This document shows positions 19,047 through 37,532 of a DNA stretch of 64,000 nucleotides, piece by piece. The first letter of the stretch is position 1. Each line of letters opens with the position of its first letter. The position numbers and the translations under genes were made by a program. Origin of the DNA: Maribacter sp. 2-571. Lineage in GTDB: Bacteria; Bacteroidota; Bacteroidia; Flavobacteriales; Flavobacteriaceae. The notes beneath the pieces were generated by a model. That model was not told the origin of the DNA. It saw nothing but the letters and a program-made list of their open reading frames with translations, and did no database searches. Location: the NCBI RefSeq assembly GCF_050589625.1, contig NZ_JBNGOP010000003.1, positions 87,023-151,022 on the forward strand. The letters run 5' to 3'.

Positions 19047-21161
19047 ATGACCATGAAAAGAGCAATCAGCTATTGTATCGGCTTCTATACGGCACTGACC
19101 CTATTAATTTCGTGTCAAGAAGACGAACCCACATTGGATGCCGTTATAGTACCTTCCAACCTCACGGTAAACACTTTGGTGGCGGACGACCAATCCGGTA
19201 ACGTAACCGTTACGCCATCAGCCGAAAATGCGCTTAATTTTCATGTCATTTTCAATCAAGGGGAAGACCCCGTCGTAATTTCAAATGGAGAATCGGCCAG
19301 TTTTAGATATACCCGGTCCGGGCAGTTCTCCACGCCCATTACGGTCATCGCTTTTGGTAAAGGAGGCGTAAGTTCAAGTACCACGGTCAATGTGGATATG
19401 GATGTGCGTTTGTTTATCGATGAGGAAACCCTAAGGCTGATCGGTGGCGATGGTGCCAAAAGATGGGTCTGGGACCGGACCGTAGGCGGTCATTTTGGAG
19501 TAGGTCCCTTGACAAATAGTTTTCCCGAATTCTTCAGTGCAGGCCCAAACCAATTAAATTCCTGTCTTTATGATGATGTTTTGGTGTTCAGTTATGATGA
19601 AAACGATAATTACGGGTACACCTTGGAACCTGGGGAAGGGAATGAAATATTTATGAACTGGACCGAGGTAAACCGATTTTTTCCGGATGCTACCCCCCAA
19701 CAATTTGCGGATGAATGCCGCGATATCACGGATCAAGCAGTTTTTGATACGAGTTTTGTAATCATCGAAAACGAAGATGGAACCCGTACGTTGGATGTCG
19801 GCAGTAGCTTTTTAAGCTATTGGTCGGTGATACCGGGGCAGTACGAAATATTGGAGCTTTCTGAGAACAGATTGGCCTTGCGTGGAATCAGCCAACCTTT
19901 CAATGGTGACGACCCACTTGCCTGGTACAGCGTTTTTGTACCGGAAGACCAAGGGGATACCGGAAGCGGAGAAGCGTTGGAAACCGTTTTTAATACCCTC
20001 GTATGGTCGGATGAGTTCGACGTTGACGGGGCTCCCGATCCTGCAAATTGGACCTACGATTTAGGAACGGGCGATAACGGTTGGGGCAATGAAGAGGCCC
20101 AAAGCTATACCAGTAATGCCGACAACGTTGTTGTTGAAAACGATCTTTTGAAGATAACCGCTAGGGCGACCGGAGGAGGCAGTGCGGCCGATGTTTATTA
20201 TTACGATAGTTTCCGACAGGCCGATGCTGGTGCAAATCCTATTCAGGAAGTACAGGATTTTGAGGGAACAGCTCCAGAATTCAATGGGTTCGAAGGGGCA
20301 AGCTCCGCGGTGGTCGGTAATCCCGATATTTCTGGCATCAATACTTCCGCGAACGTGGCATCGTTCACGAAGAATGCGGGTGCAGCCACCTTTGCGGGAA
20401 CATTTTTTGATTTGGATGCGCCTTTGGATTTTTCTGTAAACAACCGATTGCTTTTAAAGACCTGGTCCCCTAAATCGGGGGCCGTTGTTCGACTTAAGCT
20501 TGAAGATTCATCGGACGGTTCAAAATTTGTAGAGGTAGATGCGACCACAACGGTCGAAAACCAATGGGAAGAATTGACCTATGACCTAAGTGCCGCTCCG
20601 GGGTTCGATTACGATAGGATCGTAATTTTCTTTGACTTCGGGCTTGCAGGTCCAATGGGTTCCGCCTATACCTCGGCACGGATAAAAAGTGAGGGACTTC
20701 AGGAGTTTACCTACGGTAGGGTAGCGGCAAGGGCCAAGCTGCCCACGGGCGGAGGTACCTGGCCCGCAATTTGGATGTTGGGAGGGGATTACTTGACCAA
20801 CCCATGGCCAGCCGCGGGTGAAATGGATATTATGGAACATGTGGGCAACCAACAGGACATTGTTTTTGCCAGTACCCACGATCCCAATAATTTTGCGGGC
20901 AATGCCAGAACGGGATCGACGTTGGTCTCGGGCGTATCCGAGGAATTTCATATTTATGAAATGGAATGGACGCAGACCGAAATTAAATTTGCGGTAGACG
21001 GTACCGTATACCATACCGTTTCCAATGACGGTACCTTGCCCTTTAACAAGGACTTCTTTTTCATTTTAAATGTGGCCATGGGAGGCACCTTTGGTGGCGA
21101 TATCGATTCGAATTTTACCCAGTCGACCATGGAAGTTGACTATATCAGAATGTACCAATAA
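19047..21161 (+). CDS. Multidomain GH16 endo-beta-1,3-glucanase (laminarinase) lipoprotein with Ig-like and CBM-like domains
   Basis: Lipobox LLISC; a fourth copy of the CBM-like module (EFNGFEGASSAVVGNPDISGINTSANV...); C-terminal GH16 domain with catalytic ExDxxE (GEMDIMEHVG). Confidence 0.8.
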   Translation: MTMKRAISYCIGFYTALTLLISCQEDEPTLDAVIVPSNLTVNTLVADDQSGNVTVTPSAENALNFHVIFNQGEDPVVISNGESASFRYTRSGQFSTPITVIAFGKGGVSSSTTVNVDMDVRLFIDEETLRLIGGDGAKRWVWDRTVGGHFGVGPLTNSFPEFFSAGPNQLNSCLYDDVLVFSYDENDNYGYTLEPGEGNEIFMNWTEVNRFFPDATPQQFADECRDITDQAVFDTSFVIIENEDGTRTLDVGSSFLSYWSVIPGQYEILELSENRLALRGISQPFNGDDPLAWYSVFVPEDQGDTGSGEALETVFNTLVWSDEFDVDGAPDPANWTYDLGTGDNGWGNEEAQSYTSNADNVVVENDLLKITARATGGGSAADVYYYDSFRQADAGANPIQEVQDFEGTAPEFNGFEGASSAVVGNPDISGINTSANVASFTKNAGAATFAGTFFDLDAPLDFSVNNRLLLKTWSPKSGAVVRLKLEDSSDGSKFVEVDATTTVENQWEELTYDLSAAPGFDYDRIVIFFDFGLAGPMGSAYTSARIKSEGLQEFTYGRVAARAKLPTGGGTWPAIWMLGGDYLTNPWPAAGEMDIMEHVGNQQDIVFASTHDPNNFAGNARTGSTLVSGVSEEFHIYEMEWTQTEIKFAVDGTVYHTVSNDGTLPFNKDFFFILNVAMGGTFGGDIDSNFTQSTMEVDYIRMYQ

Positions 21162-21189
21162 AGCGCTGTTCGTCAAATTAGTTGTAACT

Positions 21190-21960
21190 ATGAAATACAT
21201 TATGCGTTTCGTACGCTTTCCTTTGATTTTACTTCTCATTATTTCATGCAATGCGCAAGAGGTATTGCTTTGGGAGGAGGACTTTTCAGGTACTGGCTTG
21301 AACAAGGAATATTGGAATTTTGAATTGGGTGACGGTTGTCCCGATCTGTGTGGCTGGGGGAATAACGAACCTCAGGTATACACAAAATCCAACCACAGAT
21401 TGGAAAATGGGTATCTGTACATTACCGTGGATAAAAAAGACTCGGTATATACTTCTACAAAAATCACTACCGAGAAGAAGTTCGAGTTCCAGTATGGTAG
21501 GGTAGAGGCACGGGCCAAACTACCGATAGGAAAAGGGATATGGCCGGCCTTTTGGATGCTTGGATCCAACCACAGAGAGGTCGGTTGGCCATTATGTGGG
21601 GAAATCGATATTCTGGAATACGTAGGGCGCGAACCCGATATGATCTTTAACTCCCTGCATACTGCCGATAGCCATGGTAAAACGGTAAACACCAAAAAAA
21701 GTACTATTGAGAATATAGAGGAAGGCTTTCATGTCTATGCAGCCAACTGGACACCCGATAAGATCGAATTTTTTGTGGATGGAGTGCTGTTGTACACATT
21801 TCAACCCGATAAAAAAGATGAAAAAATATGGCCCTTTGACCAACCTTTTTATCTCATTCTAAACGCGGCGATTGGCGGCGATTTTGGCGGGCATGATATC
21901 GATAATGACATACTGCCCCAAGAATTCGTTATTGACTATATTAAGGTATTCAAAAATTAA
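21190..21960 (+). CDS. GH16 family beta-glucanase (laminarinase) lipoprotein; true start 21190 (the ORF-track 21070 start overlaps the upstream gene)
   Basis: MKYIMRFVRFPLILLLIISC signal/lipobox; GH16 catalytic motif GEIDILEYVG; WPAFWMLG. Confidence 0.8.
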   Translation: MKYIMRFVRFPLILLLIISCNAQEVLLWEEDFSGTGLNKEYWNFELGDGCPDLCGWGNNEPQVYTKSNHRLENGYLYITVDKKDSVYTSTKITTEKKFEFQYGRVEARAKLPIGKGIWPAFWMLGSNHREVGWPLCGEIDILEYVGREPDMIFNSLHTADSHGKTVNTKKSTIENIEEGFHVYAANWTPDKIEFFVDGVLLYTFQPDKKDEKIWPFDQPFYLILNAAIGGDFGGHDIDNDILPQEFVIDYIKVFKN

Positions 21961-22176
21961 ATTGCGACAAGCTAATTTTACGATAGTGTCCAAGCCCGAA
22001 TAGTTGAAAAAATGGTACTAGAACAGGCCTGATGACCTAGTGGTTTCCAGGTGTTCCCCCCGAGTACCATTTTTCATTTTGTTTTGATCCAATTTCAAAG
22101 TTAAAACGGTATACTTTCCATCCGAAATAGATTTTTAGCGCTGAAGCGGGTTCAAAGGTCCTTTCCTTTTTGCAAT

Positions 22177-22345
22177 CAAAAAAATGCGCTAGTACACTTC
22201 CTTTTAAAGAAGGTGCCGGCGCATTCACCACTTGTTTACAGCGAAAATCTCTTTCAACTGTTTTACCATACCCCCGTTTCCGGAGACAGTTATCTTCTCC
22301 ATATTTTCTATCTCCTTCAACTTGAAGCGTAGTTCGTTTTCCCAA
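22177..22345 (-). pseudogene. Remnant copy (about 85-90% identical) of the 3' end plus terminator of the SPFH/band-7 gene at 31451..32557
   Basis: Direct nucleotide comparison with 31397-31590. Encodes ...KITVSGNGGMVKQLKEIFAVNK, the C-terminus of the intact gene; has a 20-bp deletion and keeps the terminator hairpin AATGCGC...GCGCATT. Confidence 0.7.
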
Positions 22346-22456
22346 TTTAGGTTCGCTATGAGGCTCTTCCCCATTCCATGGCGATGCGAAAAAATCCGCA
22401 ATTGCCAAGACCAAATCAATCAATACGAATGTAACCATAGTATGGTTTCCATGCGA

Positions 22457-25400
22457 TTACTTAAGAATTAGCTTGCCCGTATGTCGCTTAGATGTGGTGA
22501 TTGCCTCAATAATGTACATTCCGGATGGTATTGAACTTAAATCGATCTCTAACAGCTTTTTTTCGGAAGTGTTGATCGTTTCATAAACTAGTCTGCCATT
22601 CATATCAAGAATGCGTGCCGCTAAAATAGTCGTTTCTTCCTTGGGTATTTCCAACTTCAAAATCCTGTTTTTATTTGGATTGGGATAGAATGTTAGTTTT
22701 TCAATACCACTGATATCCAATAGGGGTCTACTAGCATCATGATCACAAATATTACCTATTCCGTCACCATCCTTATCTCCTTGATCGGCGTTGGGAGTTG
22801 TGGGACAGTTGTCATTTACATCAAATACGCCATCGCCATCGCTATCTTCACTTTGAAATTCGATAAAACCTTGACATAGCAATCTTTCAGAAAGCGCCCC
22901 TCCACAGCTATTGGTCTCGTTATTATAACTTCCGGTGTTTACTGCTTGTTGTTCTGCTTGTAAAATGGCATCATTTATGGAGATAAAATCTATTTGCAGG
23001 TTTTTGTCTTCACCATTTTCTTCAATGGATCCATCTAGGAATTCGATTCGTATGGGTGCATTTGGCGTAGGGAGAATGAACTCAAATTGCTGGTAGCTTT
23101 TGGTCACTTGTTGTGTAGCTCCTATTTGAGTACCCTCGACCAGTACGCGAAACATTTCTTTACCGCTGTCGCCTTTTGCCTTTACGACCAGTCTGTCACC
23201 GCCGGGCGTTCCAGAATCTTGGGTATCCTGCAAAAAATATCCGGAAAAGGCGATTAGGTAACCCATAACTTCGATATCCGGTTCATTTACCCAGTGTTTA
23301 TTGTATGCATCTATATACGCCTTAGCAGGTGGGGGTACGTTGTCATTGTAATTGCTGTTGAGATAACTTCTGTCGTGCGAAGGGCCTTTGACCGGAAGCC
23401 CGCTAGGTGCAGCATCACTAATACTAAAAGGCCTAAAATGCGGGGTTGTCACAGGAGAACTGCCTACACCGGTAATGAACACCTTGCCTAGCGCGTTTCT
23501 ACCCAATAGGATATGAAATTGATCTAACGCTACATTCTTATATTTGATATCTCCTGTAATCTGATAAGCACCCATCAAAGTCCATGCTTTGTGAAGCATG
23601 TTTCCAATGGTATGCCGGTGCTCCCAATACTTCTCTGGCAATATATTGCCATAACCGTCCGAAGTATTTTGAGCCATGTAAGAACCAAGTTGCGCCTTCA
23701 TCGCATTGATGATATCATTTTTAATGGTAGCATTAACGGCCCTATTCTCAATAAGGCAATAGCGCTGCAGTACCTGTAAAAGATTCTCGATACGCATAGA
23801 ATGTGTATTTGGGTTTTCTTCCGGGAAGGGATAATTTAGTTTGCTGTAGCTGTTATAGATAGCAACAAATTTGTCGTGATATTTCTGTTCCCCTGTGTTG
23901 ATGTATAATTCCATGGAGAGCCAAAGGAAATCTTCCTGGTAGGTAAAGTCAAAACGATATGCCTCGACCGTATCCGCAGATCCTGTCCTTCCATTCGCGT
24001 TTAAAAAATTCCATGCTGCTATTGCCTTTTGCTGACAGCGATTCGCAAATGGCGTGTCGTAGTCTTTAAATACACGATTTGCTCTGGCCAATACGGCCCC
24101 TACTTTACCCGTGTTTGTGGAGTATACATCCCCGATCAGGTATTCCGTATCATCGTTCTGAGGAGGAACCCGGCTTGGATGACTGTCTTGAACCGGGCCG
24201 AGACCAATGGAAACACCGCCGTCATCGTTCATCATCTTTATCATCCAATCCAGCCCCCATTTTGCCTCAATCAGCAAATCGGGCATACCGGAAATACGCT
24301 CATTTGAAGCTAAAGAAGAGGGGATTTCATCAAATTCACGGGGAAACAACTCTGCTATTTCCAACATTCTATTGACCGCCTGGGCATGGCTCATCGTGGA
24401 TCTTCTGTAATCGCCTCCATTATGCCAGCCACCTTCAACATTTCTATTGTCCGCAATGTAGTTACCATCTACATATCGCTGTTTGCCGGCATGCAAGTGG
24501 CATTTAGGATGCCCTACAACCTCATGTTGAACGGCATAACTACAACGGCTGGAATAGATCCCCCTTAACGAAGTACGGAACAACTCCTGGTACACTCGAT
24601 CACCAATAACAAAAGCAGGAGAGGTTTGTTCATTTACCTTGACCCTGTACCTACCAGGGGTGGTAAAATCTGAAAAATCACCTTTGAAGACGTTTTCATT
24701 GGCGTATTTATCGTATTTGGAATCAGACATGTTTCCCGTAAACACTACGTTGTTATCAGTATCCAATAACTGGAAAGAAGCCGCTGAAAAATTGGTCCTA
24801 AAGTCTTTGGGATGTAAGGTTTCGTAACCTACTTGATTTACATGTATTTTGTCCGTCGCATTTCCTGTGGCATTGGAATCGCTTGATCTTGGGTCGTAAT
24901 CGGTTTGTATGTTCAAAGGCGTATTACCGGCGTTTGCTATGGCATCCCATTTTACAAATTTGTAACGTGAAATTTGATTTGCCACTCCATCGTGGGCCAA
25001 AAACATGCCTTTCGCGAAATCGCCTCCTAAATTCACGTTGGTGACATCAATGCCATCTGTATTTTGAACATCGGTCAGTGCAAAGCTTTTGAGGTATTTG
25101 TTTTTTGCCTGACTATCTGCAAAGGCTCTTTCGAAAACCGCGTACTGATTTTTTCCCTGGACCGATGCTATTAAATATCCATTTCCCGAGTTTCCGTAAT
25201 ACAACGTTAACCCCTCCACATCTGCAGCAAGGTTGGCATTACCGGAGACGGTAGCGACGGTCACTCTTTCATTCATAAGTACACCGTCGCCGTTGGTAGG
25301 GTACCGATAAATACCTTTGTCCTCAGCGGCGATATAGATGACGTTTTTCTCGTCATCCGCCACAATTCCCTCAACTTCAGTTCCGTTGCCACTAACATCT

Positions 25401-26053
25401 ATTACCGTTGTTACCCGTACCCCTTTGATACGGTCTTCTTCCGCACCTGACAGGTTGGGTTCCAATCGATATTGCGCTACTTTTCCCGCCTTATCACTAA
25501 CAATAACGTAATGGATGTCTTTGGCTTTGTTATGGAACATGGCCAGGCCATAGGGGGCATCGCCTCCGGACAAGAAGCCATTTCCCAGCGCTATTTCACC
25601 GACTTTTTCTAGGGTAACAAAATCGCCACTGGTATTCTTGTTGACCTTAAAAACATCTATTTCCTCATCCGATCTGTTTGAAACGCATACAATATCCCAA
25701 AGTTGCTGACCGGTATCAAAGTTGTATTTGATATCAATGTTGTTATAGCGTTCGCCTTTTTCAAAAAGATTGATTCCTTCTTGCCAAGTGTTTTGCCTTA
25801 CAGATTTCCCATCCAATTTAAAGGCGTAGATGCCGCCGACGTCCGTTTTACTTTTATTCACTCCTAAGACCACACTTTTGCTTGGTGTATAGGGGTGGAT
25901 CCAGATACAGGGGTCATCTGCCTTATCCCCATTTCCCAACATGGGTTCCGAGGTTATGGTTGGACGTATCACTGGAATGTTTTGCGCAAGTGCATTGCGG
26001 GACGTAAATAGCAATAGAAACAGTAAAATGGGGAGTGTATTTTTCGTATTCAT
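22457..26053 (-). CDS. T9SS-secreted multidomain protein: phytase-like beta-propeller (BPP) domain, Ig-like CelD_N, GH9-like (alpha/alpha)6 domain, CBM-like module, thrombospondin-3-like Ca-binding repeats, T9SS C-terminal sorting domain
   Basis: Signal peptide; ADDPCIWIHP (BPP DDPAIW-type motif); GGWHNGGDYRRS (compare GH9 GGWYDAGDH); DSDGDGVFDVNDNCPTTPNADQGDKDGDGIGNICD; C-terminal LTFYPNP...GMYIIEAITTSKRHTGKLILK. Confidence 0.65.
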   Translation of the reverse strand: MNTKNTLPILLFLLLFTSRNALAQNIPVIRPTITSEPMLGNGDKADDPCIWIHPYTPSKSVVLGVNKSKTDVGGIYAFKLDGKSVRQNTWQEGINLFEKGERYNNIDIKYNFDTGQQLWDIVCVSNRSDEEIDVFKVNKNTSGDFVTLEKVGEIALGNGFLSGGDAPYGLAMFHNKAKDIHYVIVSDKAGKVAQYRLEPNLSGAEEDRIKGVRVTTVIDVSGNGTEVEGIVADDEKNVIYIAAEDKGIYRYPTNGDGVLMNERVTVATVSGNANLAADVEGLTLYYGNSGNGYLIASVQGKNQYAVFERAFADSQAKNKYLKSFALTDVQNTDGIDVTNVNLGGDFAKGMFLAHDGVANQISRYKFVKWDAIANAGNTPLNIQTDYDPRSSDSNATGNATDKIHVNQVGYETLHPKDFRTNFSAASFQLLDTDNNVVFTGNMSDSKYDKYANENVFKGDFSDFTTPGRYRVKVNEQTSPAFVIGDRVYQELFRTSLRGIYSSRCSYAVQHEVVGHPKCHLHAGKQRYVDGNYIADNRNVEGGWHNGGDYRRSTMSHAQAVNRMLEIAELFPREFDEIPSSLASNERISGMPDLLIEAKWGLDWMIKMMNDDGGVSIGLGPVQDSHPSRVPPQNDDTEYLIGDVYSTNTGKVGAVLARANRVFKDYDTPFANRCQQKAIAAWNFLNANGRTGSADTVEAYRFDFTYQEDFLWLSMELYINTGEQKYHDKFVAIYNSYSKLNYPFPEENPNTHSMRIENLLQVLQRYCLIENRAVNATIKNDIINAMKAQLGSYMAQNTSDGYGNILPEKYWEHRHTIGNMLHKAWTLMGAYQITGDIKYKNVALDQFHILLGRNALGKVFITGVGSSPVTTPHFRPFSISDAAPSGLPVKGPSHDRSYLNSNYNDNVPPPAKAYIDAYNKHWVNEPDIEVMGYLIAFSGYFLQDTQDSGTPGGDRLVVKAKGDSGKEMFRVLVEGTQIGATQQVTKSYQQFEFILPTPNAPIRIEFLDGSIEENGEDKNLQIDFISINDAILQAEQQAVNTGSYNNETNSCGGALSERLLCQGFIEFQSEDSDGDGVFDVNDNCPTTPNADQGDKDGDGIGNICDHDASRPLLDISGIEKLTFYPNPNKNRILKLEIPKEETTILAARILDMNGRLVYETINTSEKKLLEIDLSSIPSGMYIIEAITTSKRHTGKLILK

Positions 26054-26275
26054 GATTTTATAGGATTAAGAAGGAACGTATTTAATAGTATTTAGGTAAC
26101 CATAATGCGGAATATCCGGGTGGGGGCTATGTCAGAAAGCGCAAAATGAAAGGTCTATAGAAGCTATTGAAAAACTATCTTGGTTTGATATTTCAACAAC
26201 TATTTAGGGGGCTCTTTATCGATAAAAACAAAAATGGGGCGGTAAACGATAGTTCACCACCCCCTATTGTATTGT

Positions 26276-29200
26276 TTAATGCCGTATGATGATTTTGCCG
26301 CTTTGCTTATGGCCATTTACGTAGACAACGGACAGTATGTAAGTGCCATCTTTCAACTCGGACACATCGATACTCCTGTCTTCGAAGGTGGTAATCTGTT
26401 TCAGCAATGCTCCCGAAAGCGTATAAACATTCACATAAAGAATGTCTTCTTGGCTGTCCAAGGTCACGGTGCTTTGGGCCGGATTTGGATATAGTTGTAA
26501 CTCCTTGTCCTTGGCCGCCACATTATCTGCTTGCAGTCTCGTACTACCATTGCCATTGCAACCCATAAATTGTATTTCGTTTAACTTGAGGTCTTTTTTG
26601 GTCCAGTTCTTCAGGTCGGTTAATTCCTGGCCACCAATGGAAACACAATCAAAGGTGATGTTCTGGGGGAAAATGGTATTGCTATACCCTAAGAACCTGC
26701 TTTTAAGTCCTCCATCGGCCGCCACGGTCCAGTTCCTAAATGTGATATTCCTGAATTTTGCACTTACCAAGCGCTCACCCGAATTTTTGCCTGGTTGCAT
26801 CTTCAGGTCAAAAAGTCGTTTATTTAGGTCTTTGTCCTCTACCCGTATATTTTCCAACAGAATATTTTCGATAACAGCGTCGGATTTCAGGCCTTGCAAA
26901 TCAATGACATTTCCGCCCGATGTATTGTTTACGTTGCCGCGATGGTAAAGGATATCGGCATCACGAACAACACAATTTTTTCCGCCCGCGTAAGCGGTAA
27001 AAATAAAGGCAGAACCATTCCCGTCATTCCATGATGAAATGCGCCGTATCGTAACGTCGTCCATAGAGCTGGCAACATAGTAACCATCATCTTGTGTACG
27101 GGTGAAACAGTCTTCGACCAAGGCATAACCCGATACATGTATCCCATCTCCATTGGGGCGCCAACTCATGATCTTAACCCGTCGTATTTCATTAGGTGCA
27201 GCGGCAGAACCGTCACCAATGGTCAAGGAATGGTGCGAGGGGTCTTCAATGGTAATATCCTCGATCTTTAGATTGCTACTGCCTCTTAACCATTTAATTG
27301 CAGCTTGCGCTTGTTTTGTTCCGTTGATAAACCTGGGTAAATGTGCACCTGAAAGGATCCCCAAGCCAAAAACTCTTATGTTGTTGTATTCCACCTCTTT
27401 TTCAAACGTACCTTTCACAAAAGCACCGTTGGCAAAGTAGTAGTTTACGCCATCCTTTACCTTGTAATTGAGTCCCATATTATGTGTCCCAGGTTTAAAA
27501 ACTACCGTTTGCCCCGCAGTGAGATTGGACGCTTTGGGCATGCCGGTACCAGGTTGTACTACAACGAGATTGTTCGTGGGGGCGTCGATGAACGGATTGG
27601 CAAAAATACCAAGGGTATTTTCTAATTGTGCCTTTCCTCCGGACAGTGGCACTACGGAAAGATAAGCTGTTTTCAGATATGCAGTGGTAGGGGCTTGCAC
27701 GCGTATCTTGGCGACACGCTTGTCGTTTTCGGTTACGTACTTGACCGCTGCTCCTTTTTTACTGGGACGAACTTCCAGGTTTGAAATATTGCCATTTTTC
27801 TTCACAACTTTCACCCATGCTCCTTGATCACCAAACTCAAAATTCACATAACCCATCTTATACCCCCGTAAGAAGTGGTCACCCGTATTTGAATATCCAG
27901 GTTTGATGGTGTTGTTCTTCGCAAGGGTATGATGTACATGCGCCTCTTCGTAAGGGCCATTTTCATTGACCGAAACAAATACCTGATATTCATTTGATCT
28001 GGGAATATCGTTGCGAGGTGGCAATACCCTTATACCGCCTGTTTCGGTGTCATCTTCGTCTTTTGACGGGATGGTGATCGTTTGCTTGTTGGATGTCGCC
28101 ACGGCTACCTCATTTAACATGGGTCTTACAACATACGTATACTCGGCATTAGGTTCTGGATTTGTGTCGGTAAATGTAAGCGTGTTTGCTGCAACGTCGC
28201 CAATATTGTCCACATCATCCCCTCTAAACCGACGAACCCGATAGCCTGTTTCCCCTGCAACATCGCTCCAGTTTAAGGTTACACCACTTTCGGTATAGGT
28301 GGCCTTCAAATCGGTGATATTGGGCAGTGTTTCATCACCGGGGTCTGTATTGCATGAGATCATTGCATTGAACAGTCTATTGCCCGCCTTCCTGATGGCA
28401 ACGGCATCCCAATGAATGGGTTCATTGTCAACTCTGGTAGTAAGATCAATGGTACTGACATAAGAAGTGGTAGCAGCATTGTTCGCGGCATATTCCTGCA
28501 TCGCATGGGCAACATCTAGGTCTAATTGCCCGGCAAATGTATAGGCCGGTTCCATCAAAACTACTTTCATCGAATTTGCCTGGCCGGGAAGTAAATTTTC
28601 AATATCGGCCTTTAGGTCGCTAAGCATAGTTCTCAGTAGCGCACGATATTGATTTTTGGACATTGCTTTATCCGCTTCGCCCTGTTGCCAGCCAAAACCG
28701 ACCAGATTAATGGTTTTGTTGGCTTGCTTTAGTGCGGTTACTTCCCTGGTAATTCGCGCAAGAAAGTCGTCGTACATGCGTTCTCCTTTTTGCCAAATTT
28801 CAATAGAGGTTCCGCCAGAAGCCCCATTGATCAGGGCCAACTTTGTTTGTCCACAATCATATAGTTTGCGGGCCAGCGGTACGTGCATTCCATAATTTCT
28901 TACTTCAACCCCTGTATTTTTTAATTTGTGTAGGTGGGGCGATAAAGCCTTAAAATCACCAATACTTCTCGAAACCCCGATTACATTGGAATTGTTGCTC
29001 AAAAGTACGCCCACATCCGTTTCGGCCGGGTGGTTCCTGGGGACTCGTTCAGACCAAAGTGCCCTACCTCGCATATTTGACTGCCCTGCCAATAGTACAA
29101 GGTCATAAACCTCTGACTCTTTCTCCGTTTTATCCTGACTAGAGTTTATGTTCGAGTCGGATAGGTTGATCATGGTTCCACCGTATGAGGCAGTATGCAG

Positions 29201-29347
29201 TTGGTTTTCCATTTCTGGTGTCGCATCAACCGGATTCCCTTTCGCGGTGGTCGTTTTTTTAGAAAAGGCGGTAGTGATACAAAATGCGCAGAGCGCTAGC
29301 AAAATGTTGGTTTTCAATTTTATAAAGTAAGTGTCATTTTTTTTCAT
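26276..29347 (-). CDS. T9SS-secreted multidomain protein: SASA/DUF303-type carbohydrate esterase (SGNH-like), FN3 domain, right-handed parallel beta-helix (pectate-lyase-like) domain, T9SS C-terminal sorting domain
   Basis: LLAGQSNMRGR (GQSNM esterase motif); FN3 (TYTESGVTLNWSDVAGETGYRVRRF); beta-helix repeats (NGDGIHV..., SSWNDGNGSAFIF); C-terminal LQLYPNPAQSTVTL...GKIIIRH. Confidence 0.65.
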   Translation of the reverse strand: MKKNDTYFIKLKTNILLALCAFCITTAFSKKTTTAKGNPVDATPEMENQLHTASYGGTMINLSDSNINSSQDKTEKESEVYDLVLLAGQSNMRGRALWSERVPRNHPAETDVGVLLSNNSNVIGVSRSIGDFKALSPHLHKLKNTGVEVRNYGMHVPLARKLYDCGQTKLALINGASGGTSIEIWQKGERMYDDFLARITREVTALKQANKTINLVGFGWQQGEADKAMSKNQYRALLRTMLSDLKADIENLLPGQANSMKVVLMEPAYTFAGQLDLDVAHAMQEYAANNAATTSYVSTIDLTTRVDNEPIHWDAVAIRKAGNRLFNAMISCNTDPGDETLPNITDLKATYTESGVTLNWSDVAGETGYRVRRFRGDDVDNIGDVAANTLTFTDTNPEPNAEYTYVVRPMLNEVAVATSNKQTITIPSKDEDDTETGGIRVLPPRNDIPRSNEYQVFVSVNENGPYEEAHVHHTLAKNNTIKPGYSNTGDHFLRGYKMGYVNFEFGDQGAWVKVVKKNGNISNLEVRPSKKGAAVKYVTENDKRVAKIRVQAPTTAYLKTAYLSVVPLSGGKAQLENTLGIFANPFIDAPTNNLVVVQPGTGMPKASNLTAGQTVVFKPGTHNMGLNYKVKDGVNYYFANGAFVKGTFEKEVEYNNIRVFGLGILSGAHLPRFINGTKQAQAAIKWLRGSSNLKIEDITIEDPSHHSLTIGDGSAAAPNEIRRVKIMSWRPNGDGIHVSGYALVEDCFTRTQDDGYYVASSMDDVTIRRISSWNDGNGSAFIFTAYAGGKNCVVRDADILYHRGNVNNTSGGNVIDLQGLKSDAVIENILLENIRVEDKDLNKRLFDLKMQPGKNSGERLVSAKFRNITFRNWTVAADGGLKSRFLGYSNTIFPQNITFDCVSIGGQELTDLKNWTKKDLKLNEIQFMGCNGNGSTRLQADNVAAKDKELQLYPNPAQSTVTLDSQEDILYVNVYTLSGALLKQITTFEDRSIDVSELKDGTYILSVVYVNGHKQSGKIIIRH

Positions 29348-30245
29348 GGGGAATATTTTGAATTCATGTTAATTTTTTGGGGTTTCTATCAACTTTTCAA
29401 ACGGCTCTTTTACGCTATGATCCAGATGTACACATGCCCGCCACTGGTGCGTTTTACCAAGGCTTGCCTTGAGTTTTACGCGTACGCTTGTATGCATGGG
29501 ATTGTACCAAGGATGTTAGCGAAAATTTGGTTTTGGAAAGTGAATGCTACCTGTGAATGCCATGGTATCGCACCAGCTATTACAAAGCTGACATGAACAC
29601 CAATACGCATATCGGGGCATTTCTAAGCTATGGCGGCGGATCGGAGAAACGGCGCAGTAGCATCGATTGGAATACAAGAAAGATTTTTAAAAAAATCTGA
29701 AAAAAGTAGGTTCTACCACAAAGGCAACGTTCAATCATAACATGTATATAATTTTGGGTTACTTAAAAAAATACATGTTGGTTTGGCCATATATTGACAC
29801 GGTCATTGCTTGGGGCATTTTAAAAACAATGTACCCGTACCAAATATAAGAAGTGGTAAAAGTACTTGTAATTAGCTAGTTATAACTGCTAATTTGCAAA
29901 TTTGGATAACAAATATGAAGACCGTTGGCATTAAAAACCAGGGTTTGGAAAACTGGTTTTTACGGATATTCCCTTATTCTATAACCGATAGCAGATGAAT
30001 TTGAAACAGCGGTAGTTACGTGTAGATTATGATTTTTTTGACCTTAGGGAAGGTACTAAAGAGACCACCAAAAGAAGGGTCTTGTTCTCCAAAACCAGGA
30101 TTTCTTGCGATAATTAACCTATTTCAGTCATAATAACTGGCAAGTTTTGGTTCAAAATGCCAAGGTCGGCAGTAGTAAAGTCGGCTTACCCGTAATGGCA
30201 CAAACTCAAAAAACCAAGACTATCCATTTTAATTAAGCGATACCC

Positions 30246-31346
30246 CTAATAATTTAAAAATTGTTTTTTGTACTGATTCGGTGTCATTCCAGTAGCTTCC
30301 TTAAAATTGGCGTAGAAGCTCGACTCTGATTTGAAACCACTGTCTATGGCAATGGAAAAAATTGTTAGATTTTGATTTTCAGATTTTTGCAATAACTTCT
30401 TGGCTTCTTCGATTCTTTTTTCTTTTATAAACTGGCTAAAGCTTTTCCCCAGTTCATCGTTCAAAAACTTTGACAATAAGTAGGGTCGAATATCGAGTTT
30501 TTGAGCCAGTTTATGTTCGTTAAGTTCTGTATCCAAATAGAGCTTTTTTTCATTTATCTGCTCCAACACAAGGGACATTTCCTCGGAGAGGGGGGGATTG
30601 TGAGCATTTAAACCAGTTTGAAAATTAGGAAACCCGGCAAGTATACGCGGATATCTTATGAAGAGATAGCTACTAATAAAAAGTATGAAACAAGTAAATA
30701 TGATATAATTGAGATGCGTTATCGGCCTTATCATCATTAACGAGCTCTTGGTAGTTATTAGTACCTCGCTTAGAATGGAGAAGAGTAGATTAAAAAAACT
30801 GATATAGGTAATCACCGCTAAAAAAATAATCAAGGTTTTGGGCCACGTCAAGAGTTTTCTGTATTTATTCTTAAAAGATGTTTTAGCCAAACGAAAATCC
30901 GGTAGCATCTTCAATAGCAAAATTAATTTCCATCCAAAGACTACGATTAAACTTCCCTTATGTAGCCGCGTTCCGATGTAATCATGAAAATCAAGGTCGT
31001 TTTTAAAACAAACAAAACCCAACAGCAATAAGGACCAAATAAGACAGGGTGCAAAAAGTATTCGATAATCTATGGTGAGATTTTTGTTGAATATCTTTTT
31101 TAAGTAAATATAAAGTAGGGTAGGAAGCAGTAAATCTAAAATATCGGGCACCACCAATAATTGTGGGGTATTAAACTTAACTTCTGTAAACCGCAAAACA
31201 TATTGAAACGTGATATTAGTAGATATCACAAAAAAGATAAATGACAAAAGGTAATTGCCATACCCCTTTTTTACTAGGGGGATTACAATACCAACCAATA
31301 CACTTTGAATTATTCCCCAGATGAATAAGGCAATAGTCATCCTCAA
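30246..31346 (-). CDS. Membrane-embedded AraC-family transcriptional regulator
   Basis: About 7 N-terminal TM helices; C-terminal AraC HTH (LAQKLDIRPYLLSKFLNDELGKSFSQFIKEKRIEEAKKLL ... SIAIDSGFKSESSFYANFKEATGMTPNQYK). Confidence 0.75.
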   Translation of the reverse strand: MRMTIALFIWGIIQSVLVGIVIPLVKKGYGNYLLSFIFFVISTNITFQYVLRFTEVKFNTPQLLVVPDILDLLLPTLLYIYLKKIFNKNLTIDYRILFAPCLIWSLLLLGFVCFKNDLDFHDYIGTRLHKGSLIVVFGWKLILLLKMLPDFRLAKTSFKNKYRKLLTWPKTLIIFLAVITYISFFNLLFSILSEVLITTKSSLMMIRPITHLNYIIFTCFILFISSYLFIRYPRILAGFPNFQTGLNAHNPPLSEEMSLVLEQINEKKLYLDTELNEHKLAQKLDIRPYLLSKFLNDELGKSFSQFIKEKRIEEAKKLLQKSENQNLTIFSIAIDSGFKSESSFYANFKEATGMTPNQYKKQFLNY

Positions 31347-31396
31347 ATATAATCATCAAATATTAAAGGATTTAAATGAGGTTTAAATAGCATGAC

Positions 31397-31448
31397 TAAA
31401 AAAAAAATGCGCTAGTACACTTCTTTTTAAAGAAGGTGCCGGCGCATT
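31397..31448 (-). terminator. Rho-independent terminator of the SPFH gene (also present in the duplicated copy at 22177-22225)
   Basis: Minus strand: AATGCGC...(loop)...GCGCATT followed by a T9 run. Confidence 0.6.
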
Positions 31449-31450
31449 CA

Positions 31451-32557
31451 CTACTTGTTTACAGCAAAAATCTCTTTTAACTGTTTGACCATACCCCCGT
31501 TCCCGGAGACGGTGATCTCACCAATCTTTTCGGCGATTTTCTCCACATATTCCATCTCTTTCAACTTGAAGAGCATTTCGTTTTCTTCCATTAGTTTAGC
31601 GGTGTTCAGCAAACTTCGGGTAGAAGCGGTCTCTTCACGTCGTGTAATGGTATTGGCCTGTGCCTGTTTTTGTGCCACAAGCACTTGGTTCATGATAGCC
31701 TTCATTTCACCCGTTAAGATGACATCTCGGATACCACAGTTCAGTACTTGTACGCCCAGGTCGGCCGCTGTTGTCTTGATTTCGGAAAATACCGCATCGG
31801 CGATGCGTTCCTTTCGCTCTAACAGCTCATCCAAGGTATAGGTGCCTATGTAGGCACGCAATACCAATTGAATGGCAACATATAACTGCTTTTCGTAGTC
31901 TTTGTTTTCCAACAAGGCCTTTTCAATAGCAACTACTTTATACTGGGTATAGCAGTTGATTCGAATAGCGGCCTTGTCCTTGGTCAACAATTCTTGCCCT
32001 GAGATCTCGAGTTGCAATTGTCGCATATCGGCGCGTGCAATCTTTACCGAGGTATCGTTTTTCCAGAAGTGGTATACCCCACTGTCCAGAACCTTCACGA
32101 AGGTATCCTCGACCAGTAACAGCGCTTTTTCGTATGCCAAAATCTCCAATACACGAATGTAAGGGCGCAGCAACGGATGGCCTAGCAGCATTTTGCCAAT
32201 GGGTTCGGTGATGTAGATTTTACTTAAATCGGCCATCACGAACTCATAATTGATCAATCCTTTCCAGAAAGCATATTTACCGGCTGCAAGCACTTTTTTC
32301 AAAGTCCCGTTTTCAGATACCAATGCCAACTCCGCATCTTTTACCTCGATAACGTGCAATAGTGCCTCCAAACCTTGGTCCTGTAGCAAAATCTCCAATG
32401 CTATCGGGGCCACAAAGGCTTTGGTGAGGTCGTATACCATGACCATGTTTCGTAGGCCTACCCAGTGTGTGCCTTGGGTAATAACGTTTTGGTAATCTCC
32501 ATTTTTGAAGACCAAACCTACTTTTCCTGCATTGATTCGTACTCGTTTCATCATCAT
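31451..32557 (-). CDS. SPFH/band-7 (slipin/flotillin-like) domain protein
   Basis: 368 aa; band-7 core followed by a long coiled-coil C-terminal region (VAQKQAQANTITRREETASTRSLLNTAKLMEENEMLFKLKEMEYVEK). Confidence 0.75.
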   Translation of the reverse strand: MMMKRVRINAGKVGLVFKNGDYQNVITQGTHWVGLRNMVMVYDLTKAFVAPIALEILLQDQGLEALLHVIEVKDAELALVSENGTLKKVLAAGKYAFWKGLINYEFVMADLSKIYITEPIGKMLLGHPLLRPYIRVLEILAYEKALLLVEDTFVKVLDSGVYHFWKNDTSVKIARADMRQLQLEISGQELLTKDKAAIRINCYTQYKVVAIEKALLENKDYEKQLYVAIQLVLRAYIGTYTLDELLERKERIADAVFSEIKTTAADLGVQVLNCGIRDVILTGEMKAIMNQVLVAQKQAQANTITRREETASTRSLLNTAKLMEENEMLFKLKEMEYVEKIAEKIGEITVSGNGGMVKQLKEIFAVNK

Positions 32558-32940
32558 TTTAAATTTGTGTCCGCCTCGCCGGTGACGGACGAACGGGTTA
32601 AACTATCATCATATATTTTAGTTGTTTCTTTTGTTTAAAAAACCGCAGCTGTGGTTCATCCATCGACTACGGAAATATTGGTTTTTGAAGTGTCGGATGA
32701 TTTGTTTTTTAGTATGCTTCCATCGGCTTTGCCAAAGGTGTTCATTGGTTTTTTCCAAGGGAGGGATATTCAAAAAGAAATGACCTTCCACATCAAATAG
32801 TCAACATTTCAAGGTAGTATTAAGACTGTTTGCCTTTCCGAAGAAAAGCCGACCGATCCATAACTACGGTTTTTTGTCATTTTAAGTCTAACAGGACTTG
32901 GAGACCAGTTTTAAAAGATGGTCGGCTTTAGAAAATGGAT

Positions 32941-33115
32941 TTTCAGTCCATATCCCACGTTATGAGCGTGGTGCTCTACCAACTGAGCTATCCCGATGCT
33001 GGCGGGAGCAGGAGTCGAACCTGCGCATCCTTCTGTTGTTCTAACCTAACTGAACTACGGTTCCAAATAGAACCGACGGGATTCGAACCCGTGACCGACA
33101 GATCTGAGACCATTT
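32941..33115 (-). pseudogene. Cluster of scrambled tRNA gene fragments (Asp-type 3' half, Asp-type 5' half, a 3' T-arm/acceptor fragment, an anticodon-CAT tRNA lacking a matching 3' acceptor)
   Basis: Minus strand reads ...GGTCACGGGTTCGAATCCCGTCGGTTCTA-TTT-GGAACCGTAGTTCAGTTAGGTTAGAAC-AACAGAAGGATGCGCAGGTTCGACTCCTGCTCCCGCCA-GCATCGGGATAGCTCAGTTGGTAGAGCACCACGCTCATAACGTGG... The acceptor halves do not pair within any unit. Confidence 0.6.
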
Positions 33116-33159
33116 TTTGGAAAACAGCCGAAACCTTCAAGTCAAGTTGTATATGAAGA

Positions 33160-34500
33160 CCTAATACTTCTCAGTAAGACTTCACACAATAGTGCTATAC
33201 AGAAACACCCAACAAGACCCGCTTGATACTTTATTCCCGCGAAGGCGGGAATCTTTTACGATTTCCCTATGCGAAGCGTAGGCCTCGCCATGGAATCTTA
33301 TCTTTCAATGAACTTTAATAAACCTGGCAACACGCCTTGTTGCTGCGAGGCACCCCCGCAAACCACGATAAGCTGCGGTTTGCACTATATTTTAAAAAAA
33401 CGTGCTGGGAATACCCACGCTTATGGACAAGCTTTCGTAGGAGTATGGCGAACGCTTTCCCTACTTTTCCACGCGCCTTCCGTTGCTTTGGAAATTGCGT
33501 ACCTGTCCGATGCCAAATACATTGTAGCCGTTCGGCAACTTAGACCCGGCCTGCATAGCGGTTTTTGGCCGCGCTTTGCAATTACGGGGGTTGGCTCCCC
33601 CACCGTTCACAGGTGTCCCCTTGCGGGGCGACCTATTGGAATGTTCACCGCATGGTATCGGCTTGCGACCGCTACCACCCCATATGTTACAATGGGTTTA
33701 GGCAACTACTAGCTGCTACAATGCCCGAAGTCTTTCGCTTTTTATGTTCTATAAAATTTTGGAAAAAAGTCTAGTAACAATTAATCATTTGACCTGGAAG
33801 AAGGGCTTCGAGAATGGCTCCGTAGATTTTGGCCTACAAAATACCAACCTTCTTCCTGTAAGCTTCCCAGCTTACGGCAGTTCCAGCCACCGAACAGTTT
33901 ACCTGTCGGGTTACTTTTATGCTGTAATCGGCACCGTTAAATCGGATGGTTTAAGCGTTACCGAGAACTACAACTTTTCCTGTTGGTGTCTCCACCGCAA
34001 GCCTACTTTTGGTCGGCTATATTTTTCTAAGGCCTCTCAGCGGTCGCCCCTGAGGCCTTGTAAAAATATGTTGGTTGCTTGCTTACCTGTACTCCCCCCG
34101 AAGGGGATAGTCTCCATTTGCGAGGCCCGCAAATAGATTTATCCTTGTTACCAAGTTTATCTAAGGACGATAAGCCGCCCCGTCATTTACAAGAAATGAC
34201 GATTTTTTTCGTAGAAGCCCATGATATGGACTCCTTTTTATTTCAATGAACTTTAGTTGAGCCTCACAACACTCCTAGTTGCTGCGAGGCACGCTCACAA
34301 ACCTCTTTTTAAAAGGCTTGTTTTTAAATACTGGGCAAAATTGAATCATAACTACGCAATTATTATGCGTAGATATTTTTTTTCATCGCATTACTTCTGC
34401 GTCGTCACGCTGAGCCTGTCGAAGCGCATTTCATTTTTGCTCGCCCCTCGACAAGCTCGGACTGACAATGCGTTGTTCATTTGACCATCTTTATTGCGGT
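33160..34500. other. ORF-free, hairpin-dense region of about 1.3 kb containing a duplicated ~90-nt motif (TTTCAATGAACTTTA...GTTGCTGCGAGGCAC) at ~33294 and ~34225, each followed by a plus-strand terminator-like hairpin
   Basis: No credible ORF. Many perfect hairpins (ggcctctcag...ctgaggcc, gtaagcttcccagcttac, ccccgaagggg). Terminator-like hairpins at 33365-33405 and 34352-34384 on the plus strand. Confidence 0.4.
34352..34384 (+). terminator. Rho-independent terminator (plus strand) inside the noncoding region
   Basis: CTACGCAATTATTATGCGTAG hairpin followed by ATATTTTTTTT. Confidence 0.5.
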
Positions 34501-34594: not shown

Positions 34595-34599
34595 ATTTG

Positions 34600-34671
34600 A
34601 AGATCCGAAAGGAGTTGAACCTTTACGCCAAGGATCAAAACCTTGTATGCTAACCGTTACATCACGGATCT
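34600..34671 (-). tRNA. tRNA-Gln (anticodon TTG)
   Basis: AGATCCG-TG-ATGT-AACGGTTA-GCAT-A-CAAGG-TTTTGAT-CCTTG-GCGT-AAAGG-TTCAACT-CCTTT-CGGATCT-T; all stems pair. Confidence 0.8.
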
Positions 34672-34676
34672 ATTTG

Positions 34677-34748
34677 TACTCCATAAGGGAATCGAACCCT
34701 TGTCTTCCGATAGAAAGTCGGATGCACTAGCCACTATGCTAATGGAGC
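34677..34748 (-). tRNA. tRNA-Glu (anticodon TTC)
   Basis: GCTCCAT-TA-GCAT-AGTGGCTA-GTGC-A-TCCGA-CTTTCTA-TCGGA-AGAC-AAGGG-TTCGATT-CCCTT-ATGGAGT-A. Confidence 0.8.
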
Positions 34749-34754
34749 ATTTCT

Positions 34755-34848
34755 TCTGAGAAGCAACCCCGATGCTTCGGGGGAACTTGCGACCTCCCGC
34801 TTCCAAAGCGGGTAAACATCTCCCGAAGCTTCGGGATTATCTTCCCAG
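34755..34848 (-). ncRNA. tRNA-like element, anticodon TGG (Pro-like); both the D-arm (TCCCGAAGCTTCGGGA) and the T-loop (CCCCGAAGCATCGGGG) are replaced by palindromic hairpins
   Basis: Acceptor CTGGGAA/TTCTCAG; anticodon arm CCCGC-TTTGGAA-GCGGG; T region GCAA-G-TTC-hairpin-TTGC. Confidence 0.4.
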
Positions 34849-34852
34849 TTTG

Positions 34853-34936: not shown

Positions 34937-34939
34937 TTG

Positions 34940-37525: not shown

Positions 37526-37532
37526 TACTATT

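What the first reader, a model, noticed from the sequence alone, without database searches (positions are those of the whole stretch)
22177..31590. 9.2-kb island bounded by a duplicated 3' end and terminator of the band-7/SPFH gene: signature of site-specific integration, but no integrase present
A ~150-bp segment comprising the last ~30 codons of the SPFH gene (..ITVSGNGGMVKQLKEIFAVNK), its stop codon and its rho-independent terminator hairpin occurs twice in direct orientation: next to the intact gene (31397-31590) and as a diverged copy (about 85-90% identity with a 20-bp deletion) at 22177-22345. Between them lie only an AraC regulator and two giant T9SS-secreted enzymes. A gene whose 3' end is intact at one boundary while a partial duplicate sits at the other is the classic attL/attR footprint of integrative elements that target gene 3' ends, yet no recombinase remains, suggesting an old, domesticated island. 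The left boundary also carries a 12-bp inverted repeat with a 45-nt structured loop (22003-22078).
Basis: seen in the sequence. Interest (0 to 1): 0.6.

Follow-up and report, generated by a model that had tools for sequence, protein, structure and literature searches.

The report
Displaced gene tail flanking a CAZyme islet
A three-gene enzyme cassette in a marine Maribacter sits between a conserved membrane-protein gene and a decaying spare copy of that gene's tail and terminator; it appears to spread between species by ordinary homologous recombination rather than by an integrase, which makes it a tidy but fairly ordinary case of island evolution.

Summary
The repeat is real. Window 22178-22345 and 31401-31590 match at 88.7% with one 21-nt gap. 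The distal copy is a dead 3' fragment of the slipin/SPFH gene plus a complete intrinsic terminator. Between the copies lie only an AraC regulator, a SASA esterase and a phytase-GH9 fusion.

The cassette is an insertion: in the related loci L002 and L005, SPFH directly abuts an NAD-salvage cluster. Only four genomes carry it. These are the window (Maribacter sp. 2-571), two conspecific strains and one genome of another species.

In that other species the flanking genes are 70-83% identical to the window, but SPFH plus the cassette are 97-99.5% identical. The shared block stops at the last T of the distal terminator and includes the whole SPFH gene.

No genome has a recombinase. The two copies swap sequence patches and terminator haplotypes. 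Similarity falls from 98% at the terminator to random at the fragment's 5' end.

Best reading: an integrase-free islet. The displaced tail now terminates the GH9 gene and serves as a homology arm for RecA-type transfer. How the first insertion happened is unresolved. The attL/attR reading is only partly supported, and interest is modest.

Seen in passing: a GOLLD-like RNA beside tRNA arrays and RtcB, just upstream of SPFH.

The parts
31451..32557 (-). Intact slipin/SPFH (Band 7) gene. The start called in relatives corresponds to 32551 (366 aa).
   Evidence: Pfam Band_7, E 5e-25. 391 relatives were found, and the C-terminal 80 aa are nearly invariant. NCBI names relatives 'slipin family protein'.
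31398..31450 (-). Proximal intrinsic terminator of SPFH: hairpin 31405-31449 and U-run 31398-31407. This is haplotype A.
   Evidence: Fold of -19.4 kcal/mol followed by U10. The consensus structure has 17 pairs, 4 of them compensatory, across 8 copies.
31401..31590 (-). Proximal copy of the direct repeat: the last ~46 codons of SPFH, its stop codon and its terminator.
30246..31346 (-). AraC-family regulator with an N-terminal membrane domain. It has low GC (34%).
   Evidence: Pfam HTH_18 and HTH_AraC; GC. The nearest homologues outside the four-genome cluster (47-56% identity) sit inside polysaccharide-utilisation loci.
29348..30245 (.). A 0.9-kb non-coding spacer at 38% GC. It holds no gene remnant.
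   Evidence: No ORF exceeds 76 aa, and there is no Pfam hit at E<0.1. Rfam reported nothing in this stretch.
26276..29347 (-). SASA-type carbohydrate esterase with a T9SS sorting domain. Its own terminator-like site is at 26236-26263.
   Evidence: Pfam SASA and Por_Secre_tail; terminator scan.
22457..26053 (-). Fusion protein: phytase, CelD_N, GH9, CBM60, TSP3 and a T9SS sorting domain.
   Evidence: Pfam. Its 90%-identity cluster has four members, and the next relative matches at 62% over 30% of the protein.
22228..22345 (-). Distal pseudogene fragment of the SPFH 3' end. It has a 21-nt in-frame deletion, substitutions at family-invariant residues, and TAG changed to TGG at the stop.
   Evidence: L081 carries the same deletion plus a +2 frameshift.
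22178..22227 (-). Distal copy of the SPFH terminator, now the only hairpin-plus-U-run site downstream of the phytase-GH9 gene. The window/L081 shared block ends at 22178.
   Evidence: Fold of -19.8 kcal/mol; covariation; the homology break with L081 falls exactly here.
22003..22078 (+). Long hairpin followed by a T-run, probably the terminator of the convergent GH16 gene (stop at 21960). It belongs to the flank, not the islet.
   Evidence: Conserved in L082 and L083 and absent from L081.

Best explanation
The structure is an integrase-free accessory islet (AraC regulator, SASA esterase, phytase-GH9). It is lodged in a hypervariable slot between the conserved slipin/SPFH gene and gldD/gldE. It is bracketed on one side by the intact SPFH 3' end and terminator, and on the other by a displaced, decaying copy of them.

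Shown:
- The distal copy is a pseudogene fragment with an intact terminator.
- The islet is an insertion relative to other genera.
- SPFH plus the islet recently crossed a species boundary as one block, which ends at the last base of the distal terminator.
- The two copies exchange sequence.

Inferred, how it works now:
1. The distal hairpin terminates transcription of the phytase-GH9 gene, so it is kept intact.
2. The distal tail and terminator act as a homology arm. When DNA carrying SPFH, islet and fragment enters a relative that has only SPFH, one crossover falls in or upstream of SPFH. The other falls between the donor's distal fragment and the recipient's own SPFH tail. This inserts the islet and leaves the recipient's own tail and terminator as the new distal end.
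3. Repeated transfers and intragenomic gene conversion renew the 3' part of the fragment more often than the 5' part. That would produce the 98% > 90% > 79% > random identity gradient.

Inferred and unresolved: the very first insertion. It could have been homology-facilitated illegitimate recombination, another recombinase-independent duplication, or an integrase since lost.
For: 1. Transfer across species. Window vs L081/L001 flanking genes, nt identity: RtcB 83%, PrfH-like 75%, TPR 76%, gldD 70%. That is the same distance as to L002. Yet SPFH is 98.5%, AraC 99.5%, and SASA and GH9 97.0%. L082 and L083 are conspecific with the window (96.5-97.5% across flanks).
2. Block boundaries. The window/L081 homology runs 22178-34254 and ends at the T-run of the distal terminator, after which the sequences are unrelated. 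On the other side there are 0 mismatches across 32451-32550 and then 12-34 per 50 nt from 32551.
3. L081's distal copy is a chimera. Its 5' part, with the same 21-nt deletion, is nearly identical to the window's. Its tail is about 23% different and keeps the outgroup Ser codon TCC, where the other seven copies have GCT.
4. Ectopic exchange. Terminator haplotype A is at window proximal and distal, L082 proximal, and L081 proximal and distal. Haplotype B/B' is at L082 distal, L083 distal and L083 proximal. L083's distal copy carries a ~35-nt patch with its own proximal allele's private states (TCTGGC, ATCGGCGA).
5. The hairpin is conserved at both positions, with 4 compensatory pairs.
6. No recombinase in the three genes, the spacer or the neighbours in four genomes.
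7. Genus-level empty site and hotspot. In L002 and L005 the NAD cluster abuts SPFH. L081 has that cluster beyond the distal repeat. Content downstream of SPFH differs in nearly every genus.
8. Precedent for displaced 3' ends without an integrase: PMC5361080. Definition of homology-facilitated illegitimate recombination: PMC3240628.
Against: - No donor/recipient pair or species-level empty site is available, so the crossover positions are inferred from only four genomes.
- L081's distal tail has more disabling changes (5 non-synonymous, a frameshift and a lost stop in 22 codons) than expected if it was functional until a very recent transfer. This requires an older first import followed by later homogenising exchanges, or a pre-existing fragment in that species.
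- The right boundary is mosaic. Identity breaks at the SPFH start, resumes at 33101-33650 and ends at 34254, so more than one event is needed.
- The L081 distal terminator is closer to haplotype A (~94-96%) than its tail is, which the simple 'resident tail' story does not predict.
- Terminator function and competence or conjugation in these bacteria were not tested.
Confidence: 0.6

Rival explanations
1. This is the decayed remnant of a site-specific integrative element, of the e14/phage-21 type. An element carrying its own copy of the SPFH 3' end integrated into the gene. It supplied a replacement tail and terminator, displaced the host's tail to the far end as attR, and later lost its integrase and mobility genes.
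For: - The architecture is exactly that of icd / e14 / icdC (PMC13626634): an intact gene at one end and a 3' pseudogene fragment at the other.
- The cassette is inserted relative to other genera.
- The differences in the last 21 codons are all synonymous apart from the stop codon.
- AraC has deviant GC, and the islet genes have lower GC3 than the core genes.
Against: - There is no recombinase, excisionase, transfer or phage gene, and no remnant of one, in any of the four genomes. AraC starts ~55-110 nt after the terminator and the GH9 stop codon is ~110 nt from the fragment. That leaves no room next to either att-like site.
- The block shared between species includes the entire SPFH gene and more. 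Integration at the 3' end would not carry that.
- Both copies share the lineage-specific expanded terminator, so an element-borne copy would have to come from the same narrow lineage.
- The AraC homologues are PUL regulators, not element genes.
Confidence: 0.2
2. The duplication is a purely local accident, either a tandem duplication followed by deletion or a long target-site duplication at insertion. It was inherited vertically, and the fragment plays no part in transfer. It persists only because its terminator is useful. Under this view the sharp break at 22178 merely marks where a neighbouring variable region begins.
For: - The region between gldD and SPFH is variable in every genus, so a break next to any conserved element is expected.
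- The terminator is structurally conserved.
- At 4 of 6 synonymous differences the distal copy keeps the outgroup state, as expected if both copies descend from one resident gene.
Against: - It does not explain why L081, as distant as another genus in its flanks, carries SPFH and the islet at 97-99.5% identity.
- It does not explain why L081's distal tail has a different ancestry from its 5' part.
- It does not explain the graded rather than uniform decay.
Confidence: 0.15
3. The repeat is a coincidence of similar terminators or low-complexity sequence.
For: Relatives use a related AATGCGYC...GRCGCATTTTT terminator motif.
Against: - About 120 nt of the repeat is in-frame SPFH coding sequence.
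- The expanded hairpin form is specific to these genomes.
- The same fragment with the same deletion is present in four assemblies.
Confidence: 0.01

Closest known systems
e14 / phage 21 integration into icd of E. coli (icd ... prophage ... icdC pseudogene)
   Same: A gene stays intact because the inserted DNA is followed or preceded by a second copy of its 3' end. A C-terminal pseudogene fragment sits at the far end in direct orientation. The differences between the copies are mostly synonymous, and recombination between the copies would delete the insert and make a chimeric gene (PMC13626634).
   Different: e14 encodes its own integrase and excises at a defined core on SOS induction. Here there is no recombinase and no phage or ICE genes. 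The cargo is three genes, the terminator is duplicated too, and the horizontally shared block includes the whole target gene.
Orphan or displaced 3' regions at Rhs, CDI and T6SS effector-immunity loci, attributed to homology-facilitated illegitimate recombination
   Same: A conserved 5' gene region acts as the anchor. Incoming DNA brings a new 3' end plus cargo. The old 3' end is pushed downstream and decays. No integrase is involved, and homologous recombination is frequent afterwards (PMC5361080; mechanism defined in PMC3240628).
   Different: In those systems the 3' ends are polymorphic toxin domains under diversifying selection, and arrays of several orphans build up. Here the 3' end is one of the most conserved parts of the protein. 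There is a single fragment, the cargo is carbohydrate-active enzymes, and the displaced piece includes a working terminator.
Flexible genomic islands or hotspots replaced by homologous recombination in conserved flanking genes
   Same: The anchors are conserved: gldE/gldD on one side and SPFH / GOLLD-like RNA / tRNAs / RtcB on the other. Gene content between them differs in each lineage. Recombination tracts end where homology ends. The comparison with this class rests on my own knowledge; no paper was read for it.
   Different: One of the two homology arms is not a core gene. It is a ~170-nt pseudogene copy that travels with the islet.

Membership tests
Integrative element with attL/attR (e14/icd type) | Direct repeats of the target's 3' end at both ends of the inserted DNA | tested here: met
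   88.7% identity over 168 aligned nt plus one 21-nt gap; 9.2 kb apart.
Integrative element with attL/attR (e14/icd type) | A site-specific recombinase gene, or a recognisable remnant, inside the element | tested here: not met
   Pfam finds only AraC, SASA and phytase-GH9. The spacer ORFs have no hit. Gene calls in L081, L082 and L083 show the same three genes.
Integrative element with attL/attR (e14/icd type) | Horizontally shared DNA begins and ends at the att repeats | tested here: not met
   The distal end coincides with the repeat at 22178. The proximal end does not: the whole SPFH coding sequence, and patches up to 34254, are shared at 92-100%.
Integrative element with attL/attR (e14/icd type) | An empty attB in strains that lack the element | tested here: inconclusive
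   Only genus-level relatives lack the cassette (L002 and L005, where SPFH abuts the NAD cluster). All four genomes with SPFH at 90% identity or more carry it. Two metagenome scans found nothing.
Integrative element with attL/attR (e14/icd type) | Excision and circularisation | not testable with these tools
   This needs sequencing reads or PCR across the junctions.
Displaced 3' end made by homology-facilitated illegitimate recombination | Conserved anchor gene, then new 3' end and cargo, then the old 3' fragment downstream, with no recombinase | tested here: met
Displaced 3' end made by homology-facilitated illegitimate recombination | An illegitimate junction with microhomology, seen by comparison with a donor that has the native arrangement | not testable with these tools
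   No genome has SPFH-AraC-SASA-GH9 without the fragment.
Island exchanged by homologous recombination (flexible island or hotspot) | Identity much higher inside the block than in flanking core genes, with tract ends in shared sequence | tested here: met
   97-99.5% inside against 70-83% in the flanks; boundaries.
Island exchanged by homologous recombination (flexible island or hotspot) | Dependence on RecA and on a DNA uptake or transfer route | not testable with these tools
   This needs an experiment.
Rho-independent terminator | GC-rich hairpin followed by a U-run, with the structure conserved | tested here: met
   -19 to -26 kcal/mol plus U6-10 in all 8 copies. There are 17 consensus pairs, 4 with compensatory changes. 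Termination itself was not tested.

The most novel reading that the evidence does not exclude
The displaced SPFH tail and terminator form a portable homology arm. It makes a recombinase-free cassette self-targeting to the 3' end of a very conserved gene. At each transfer the crossover falls inside the fragment. The new host's own tail then becomes the new distal end, while the older 5' stub travels on with the cassette. If so, the graded decay of the fragment records successive host jumps, and the islet is a minimal mobile unit that needs only the host's RecA.
Probability: 0.3. Interest if true: 0.5.

Novelty: new member of a known kind. Interest (0 to 1): 0.3.

Why it matters
It is a clean natural example of secreted carbohydrate-active enzyme genes moving between co-occurring marine Flavobacteriia without any mobile-element machinery. 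It also shows that a direct repeat of a gene's 3' end need not be an att site.

For annotation, the practical lesson is that a 3'-end duplication with no integrase should be tested against recombination-tract data before it is called a degraded integrative element.

If the homology-arm reading holds, graded decay of such fragments could be used to detect and order past transfers. The biological stakes are otherwise modest, because the mechanisms involved are known: homologous recombination, gene conversion and displaced 3' ends.

Tried and rejected
- Exact look-up of the 368-aa SPFH ORF found nothing, probably because public gene calls give a 366-aa product, two codons shorter than this ORF.
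- tblastx of the 0.7-kb L001 flank against all loci and the window found nothing. Fetching L081 solved this.
- I looked for SPFH homology 5' of 22346. The local alignment score was no better than shuffled sequence (21 against a mean of 18.3; 44 of 300 shuffles scored as high). The fragment is therefore about 170 nt and does not extend to the GH9 stop codon.
- I tried to assign L081's divergent distal tail to a particular SPFH allele among 83 loci and found no clear source. Only the shared Ser codon with the outgroups is informative.
- Two metagenome scans, one for the window-type flank and one for the tail/terminator junction, returned nothing. No empty site or further carriers were found.
- Searches for the cassette's origin were uninformative. 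The phytase-GH9 fusion and the AraC regulator each have a four-member cluster and then drop to 62% and 56% identity. The AraC relatives sit in ordinary PULs with no SPFH or integrase.
- I considered selection on a translated distal tail, because all differences there are synonymous. I rejected it. At 4 of 6 sites the distal copy simply keeps the outgroup state, so the changes lie on the functional gene's branch. L081's copy is also frameshifted.
- I considered the 22003-22078 hairpin as a REP or MITE element or an island boundary. I rejected that, because it is single-copy and tied to the GH16 flank.
- GC content does not discriminate: the islet is 42.1% against 43.6% for the window, and only AraC (34%) stands out.
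Full report
**1. The observation**

The direct repeat exists as described. Window 22178-22345 aligns with 31401-31590. Of 168 aligned bases, 149 are identical, and there is one 21-nt gap in the left (distal) copy.

The right (proximal) copy is the last ~46 codons, the stop codon and the terminator of an intact slipin/SPFH gene (31451-32557, minus strand; Pfam Band_7).

The distal copy reads in the same frame as ...NELRFKLKEIENMEK-ITVSGNGGMVKQLKEIFAVNKW*. Compared with 80 orthologues, whose C-terminal 80 residues are almost invariant and none of which has the 7-residue deletion, it carries substitutions at invariant positions. It has also lost the stop codon (TAG to TGG). It is therefore a pseudogene fragment.

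Both copies end in the same hairpin plus U-run. The start of that hairpin occurs exactly, only at these two places in the window.

Identity is graded:
- hairpin and U-run: 98%
- last 23 codons: 90%
- next 52 nt: 79%
- beyond 22346: indistinguishable from random

Between the copies lie only three genes, a 0.9-kb spacer with no gene remnant and a short gap between the last two genes:
- an AraC-family regulator
- a SASA esterase with a T9SS sorting domain
- a phytase-CelD_N-GH9-CBM60-TSP3 fusion with a T9SS sorting domain

**2. Who else has it**

The window is Maribacter sp. 2-571: the phytase-GH9 protein is 100% identical to WP_430906031. Among about 15 billion proteins, the 90%-identity clusters of the phytase-GH9 fusion, the AraC regulator and this SPFH allele each contain the same four genomes.

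- L082 and L083 are conspecific with the window. They are 96.5-97.5% identical right through the flanks and have the same GH16 PUL next to the distal repeat.
- L081 (the same contig as L001) is a different species. Its flanking genes match the window at RtcB 83%, PrfH-like 75%, TPR 76% and gldD 70% nt. These values equal those for L002, which represents another lineage.
- Yet L081's SPFH is 98.5% identical, AraC 99.5%, and SASA and phytase-GH9 97.0%. Identity is 99-100% over 29.2-31.9 kb.

This is the same level of variation seen among the conspecific strains. SPFH plus the cassette has therefore crossed a species boundary recently.

**3. It is an insertion in a hotspot**

In L002 and L005 the SPFH terminator is followed within 60-105 nt by a convergent NAD-salvage cluster (Tpt1, LDcluster4, PRT, NAMPT, NrtR). 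In L081 that same cluster lies beyond the distal repeat, after a beta-lactamase-family gene and a metallophosphoesterase gene.

Farther out, both L081 and the window reach gldD/gldE. What lies between gldD and SPFH differs in almost every genus. In the window species it is a GH16 PUL.

This gives an empty-site comparison at genus level. No species-level empty site exists in the data.

**4. Boundaries of the shared block**

Window/L081 homology stops at 22178, the last T of the distal terminator's U-run. After that the sequences are unrelated.

On the other side there are no mismatches across 32451-32550. From 32551, at the SPFH start, there are 12-34 mismatches per 50 nt. High identity returns at 33101-33650 and ends by 34254.

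The shared block therefore contains the whole target gene. A site-specific integration into the gene's 3' end would not carry it. Homologous replacement would.

**5. The copies are not frozen**

Aligning the four proximal and four distal copies shows the following.

- The distal 5' part, with the 21-nt deletion, is almost identical in all four genomes. It travels with the cassette.
- Two terminator haplotypes occur at both positions. Haplotype A is at window proximal and distal, L082 proximal, and L081 proximal and distal. Haplotype B/B' is at L082 distal, L083 distal and L083 proximal.
- L083's distal copy carries a ~35-nt patch with private states of L083's own proximal allele. This patch also changes the position of the deletion.
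- L081's distal tail is about 23% different from the others and frameshifted. It keeps the outgroup Ser codon TCC where the seven other copies have GCT.

The tail's divergence matches the ~19% nt divergence expected for SPFH at that species distance (81.5% identity for L002).

All variants keep the same hairpin, with four compensatory pairs.

These patterns mean there has been ectopic exchange between the repeats. At least one recombination junction lies inside the distal fragment.

**6. Mechanism**

The best-supported reading has three parts.

- The distal hairpin is retained because it terminates the phytase-GH9 gene. It is the only hairpin-plus-U-run site I saw downstream of that gene. The simple terminator scan reports no site between the GH9 stop and the flank hairpin at 22050-22068, which lies outside the islet.
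- The distal tail and terminator serve as the second homology arm when SPFH, cassette and fragment recombine into a genome that has only SPFH. This would leave the recipient's own tail, terminator and flank distal to the crossover. That accounts for the sharp outer boundary, the different flanks in the two species and the chimeric L081 fragment.
- Crossovers and conversions at varying positions renew the 3' end of the fragment more often than its 5' end. That accounts for the identity gradient.

All three parts are inferences. What is shown is the transfer, the boundaries, the mosaicism and the absence of a recombinase.

The first insertion remains unresolved. Homology-facilitated illegitimate recombination produces exactly this architecture at Rhs and T6SS loci (PMC5361080, PMC3240628). 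An integrase-bearing element of the e14/icd type does so too (PMC13626634). No donor arrangement or integrase relic is available to decide between them.

Weak points:
- L081's distal tail is more decayed than a very recent displacement would predict.
- L081's distal terminator is closer to haplotype A than its tail is.
- The right-hand boundary is mosaic.
- Together these require several events rather than one.

**7.

- The synonymous-only differences in the last 21 codons do not need an element-borne gene copy. At four of the six sites the distal copy keeps the outgroup state, so those changes lie on the branch of the functional gene, where only synonymous changes survive.
- GC content is unremarkable apart from AraC at 34%.
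- The hairpin at 22003-22078 sits 43 nt after the GH16 stop codon and is followed by a T-run. It is single-copy, conserved in L082 and L083, and absent from L081. It is the GH16 terminator, not an island end.

**8. Verdict**

The integrative-element interpretation is only partly supported. The structure is a new member of a known kind: an accessory islet with a displaced gene 3' end, maintained and spread by homologous recombination. Interest is modest, about 0.3.

**9. Side observation**

The spacer upstream of SPFH is an RNA locus. It holds a full-length but sub-threshold GOLLD match. Next to it are tRNA-like and YrlA-like pieces, a tRNA array of very variable size, and RtcB with a PrfH-like protein. 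The locus is conserved in L001, L002 and L003. It may deserve more attention than the island itself.

Noticed in passing
window 33402-33856 (-); also L003 8714-9188, L001 8659-9133, L002 8694-9171: There is a full-length match (model positions 1-416 of 416) to the GOLLD RNA family RF02032. It scores 138 bits with E = 4e-37, just under the gathering score of 150. The match is conserved upstream of SPFH in three related loci at 117-129 bits. The '+'-strand ORFs 33269-33712 and 33744-34136, which have no Pfam hit, are therefore probably not genes.
   Followed up: partly
window 32927-33138 (-): Between the GOLLD-like RNA and SPFH there is a tRNA-like element at 32927-32997 (36 bits, above the gathering score of 29, but not called by ARAGORN). 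Partial YrlA / Y-RNA-like and tmRNA-like matches lie beside it. This stretch is the most divergent part of the window/L081 comparison (25-40% mismatches). L002 and L003 have similar YrlA-like hits.
   Followed up: partly
window 34599-35010 (-) and 36710-38924 (-); L002 5067-6919, L003 6737-8037, L001 5540-7398: The tRNA array next to the GOLLD-like RNA varies greatly in size. The window has 3 tRNAs, against about 10, 12 and 20 tRNA hits in L001, L003 and L002. Directly beyond the array lie RtcB (RNA ligase) and an RF-1-domain, PrfH-like protein. Together this looks like a conserved RNA-repair and RNA locus.
   Followed up: no
window 22457-26053 (-): The phytase, GH9, CBM60, TSP3 and T9SS-tail fusion appears to be unique. 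Only four near-identical sequences exist among about 15 billion proteins. The next relative covers only the phytase part, at 62% identity over 30% of the protein.
   Followed up: partly
window 29178-30177: The 5' end of the SASA gene and the spacer are more divergent within the species (80-91% against L082) than between species (97-100% against L081). This is a further sign of mosaic recombination inside the islet.
   Followed up: no
window 17551-18520 (+): The 711-aa PKD-like protein gene of the GH16 PUL contains an internal ~458-nt tandem duplication at ~77% identity. It showed up as off-diagonal BLAST hits against L082 and L083.
   Followed up: no
window 19047-21960 (+): Two adjacent GH16 genes share an 81-nt stretch at 72% identity (20703-20783 and 21484-21564). 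As mechanical ORFs they overlap by ~90 nt. Gene calls in L082 and L083 give a 252-253-aa product, so the second gene probably starts near 21199.
   Followed up: no
window 8201-8833 (+): This 210-aa ORF, between gldD and the PUL regulator, has a weak match below the curated cut-off to the Pycsar effector transmembrane domain (PF18967, E = 2e-4).
   Followed up: no
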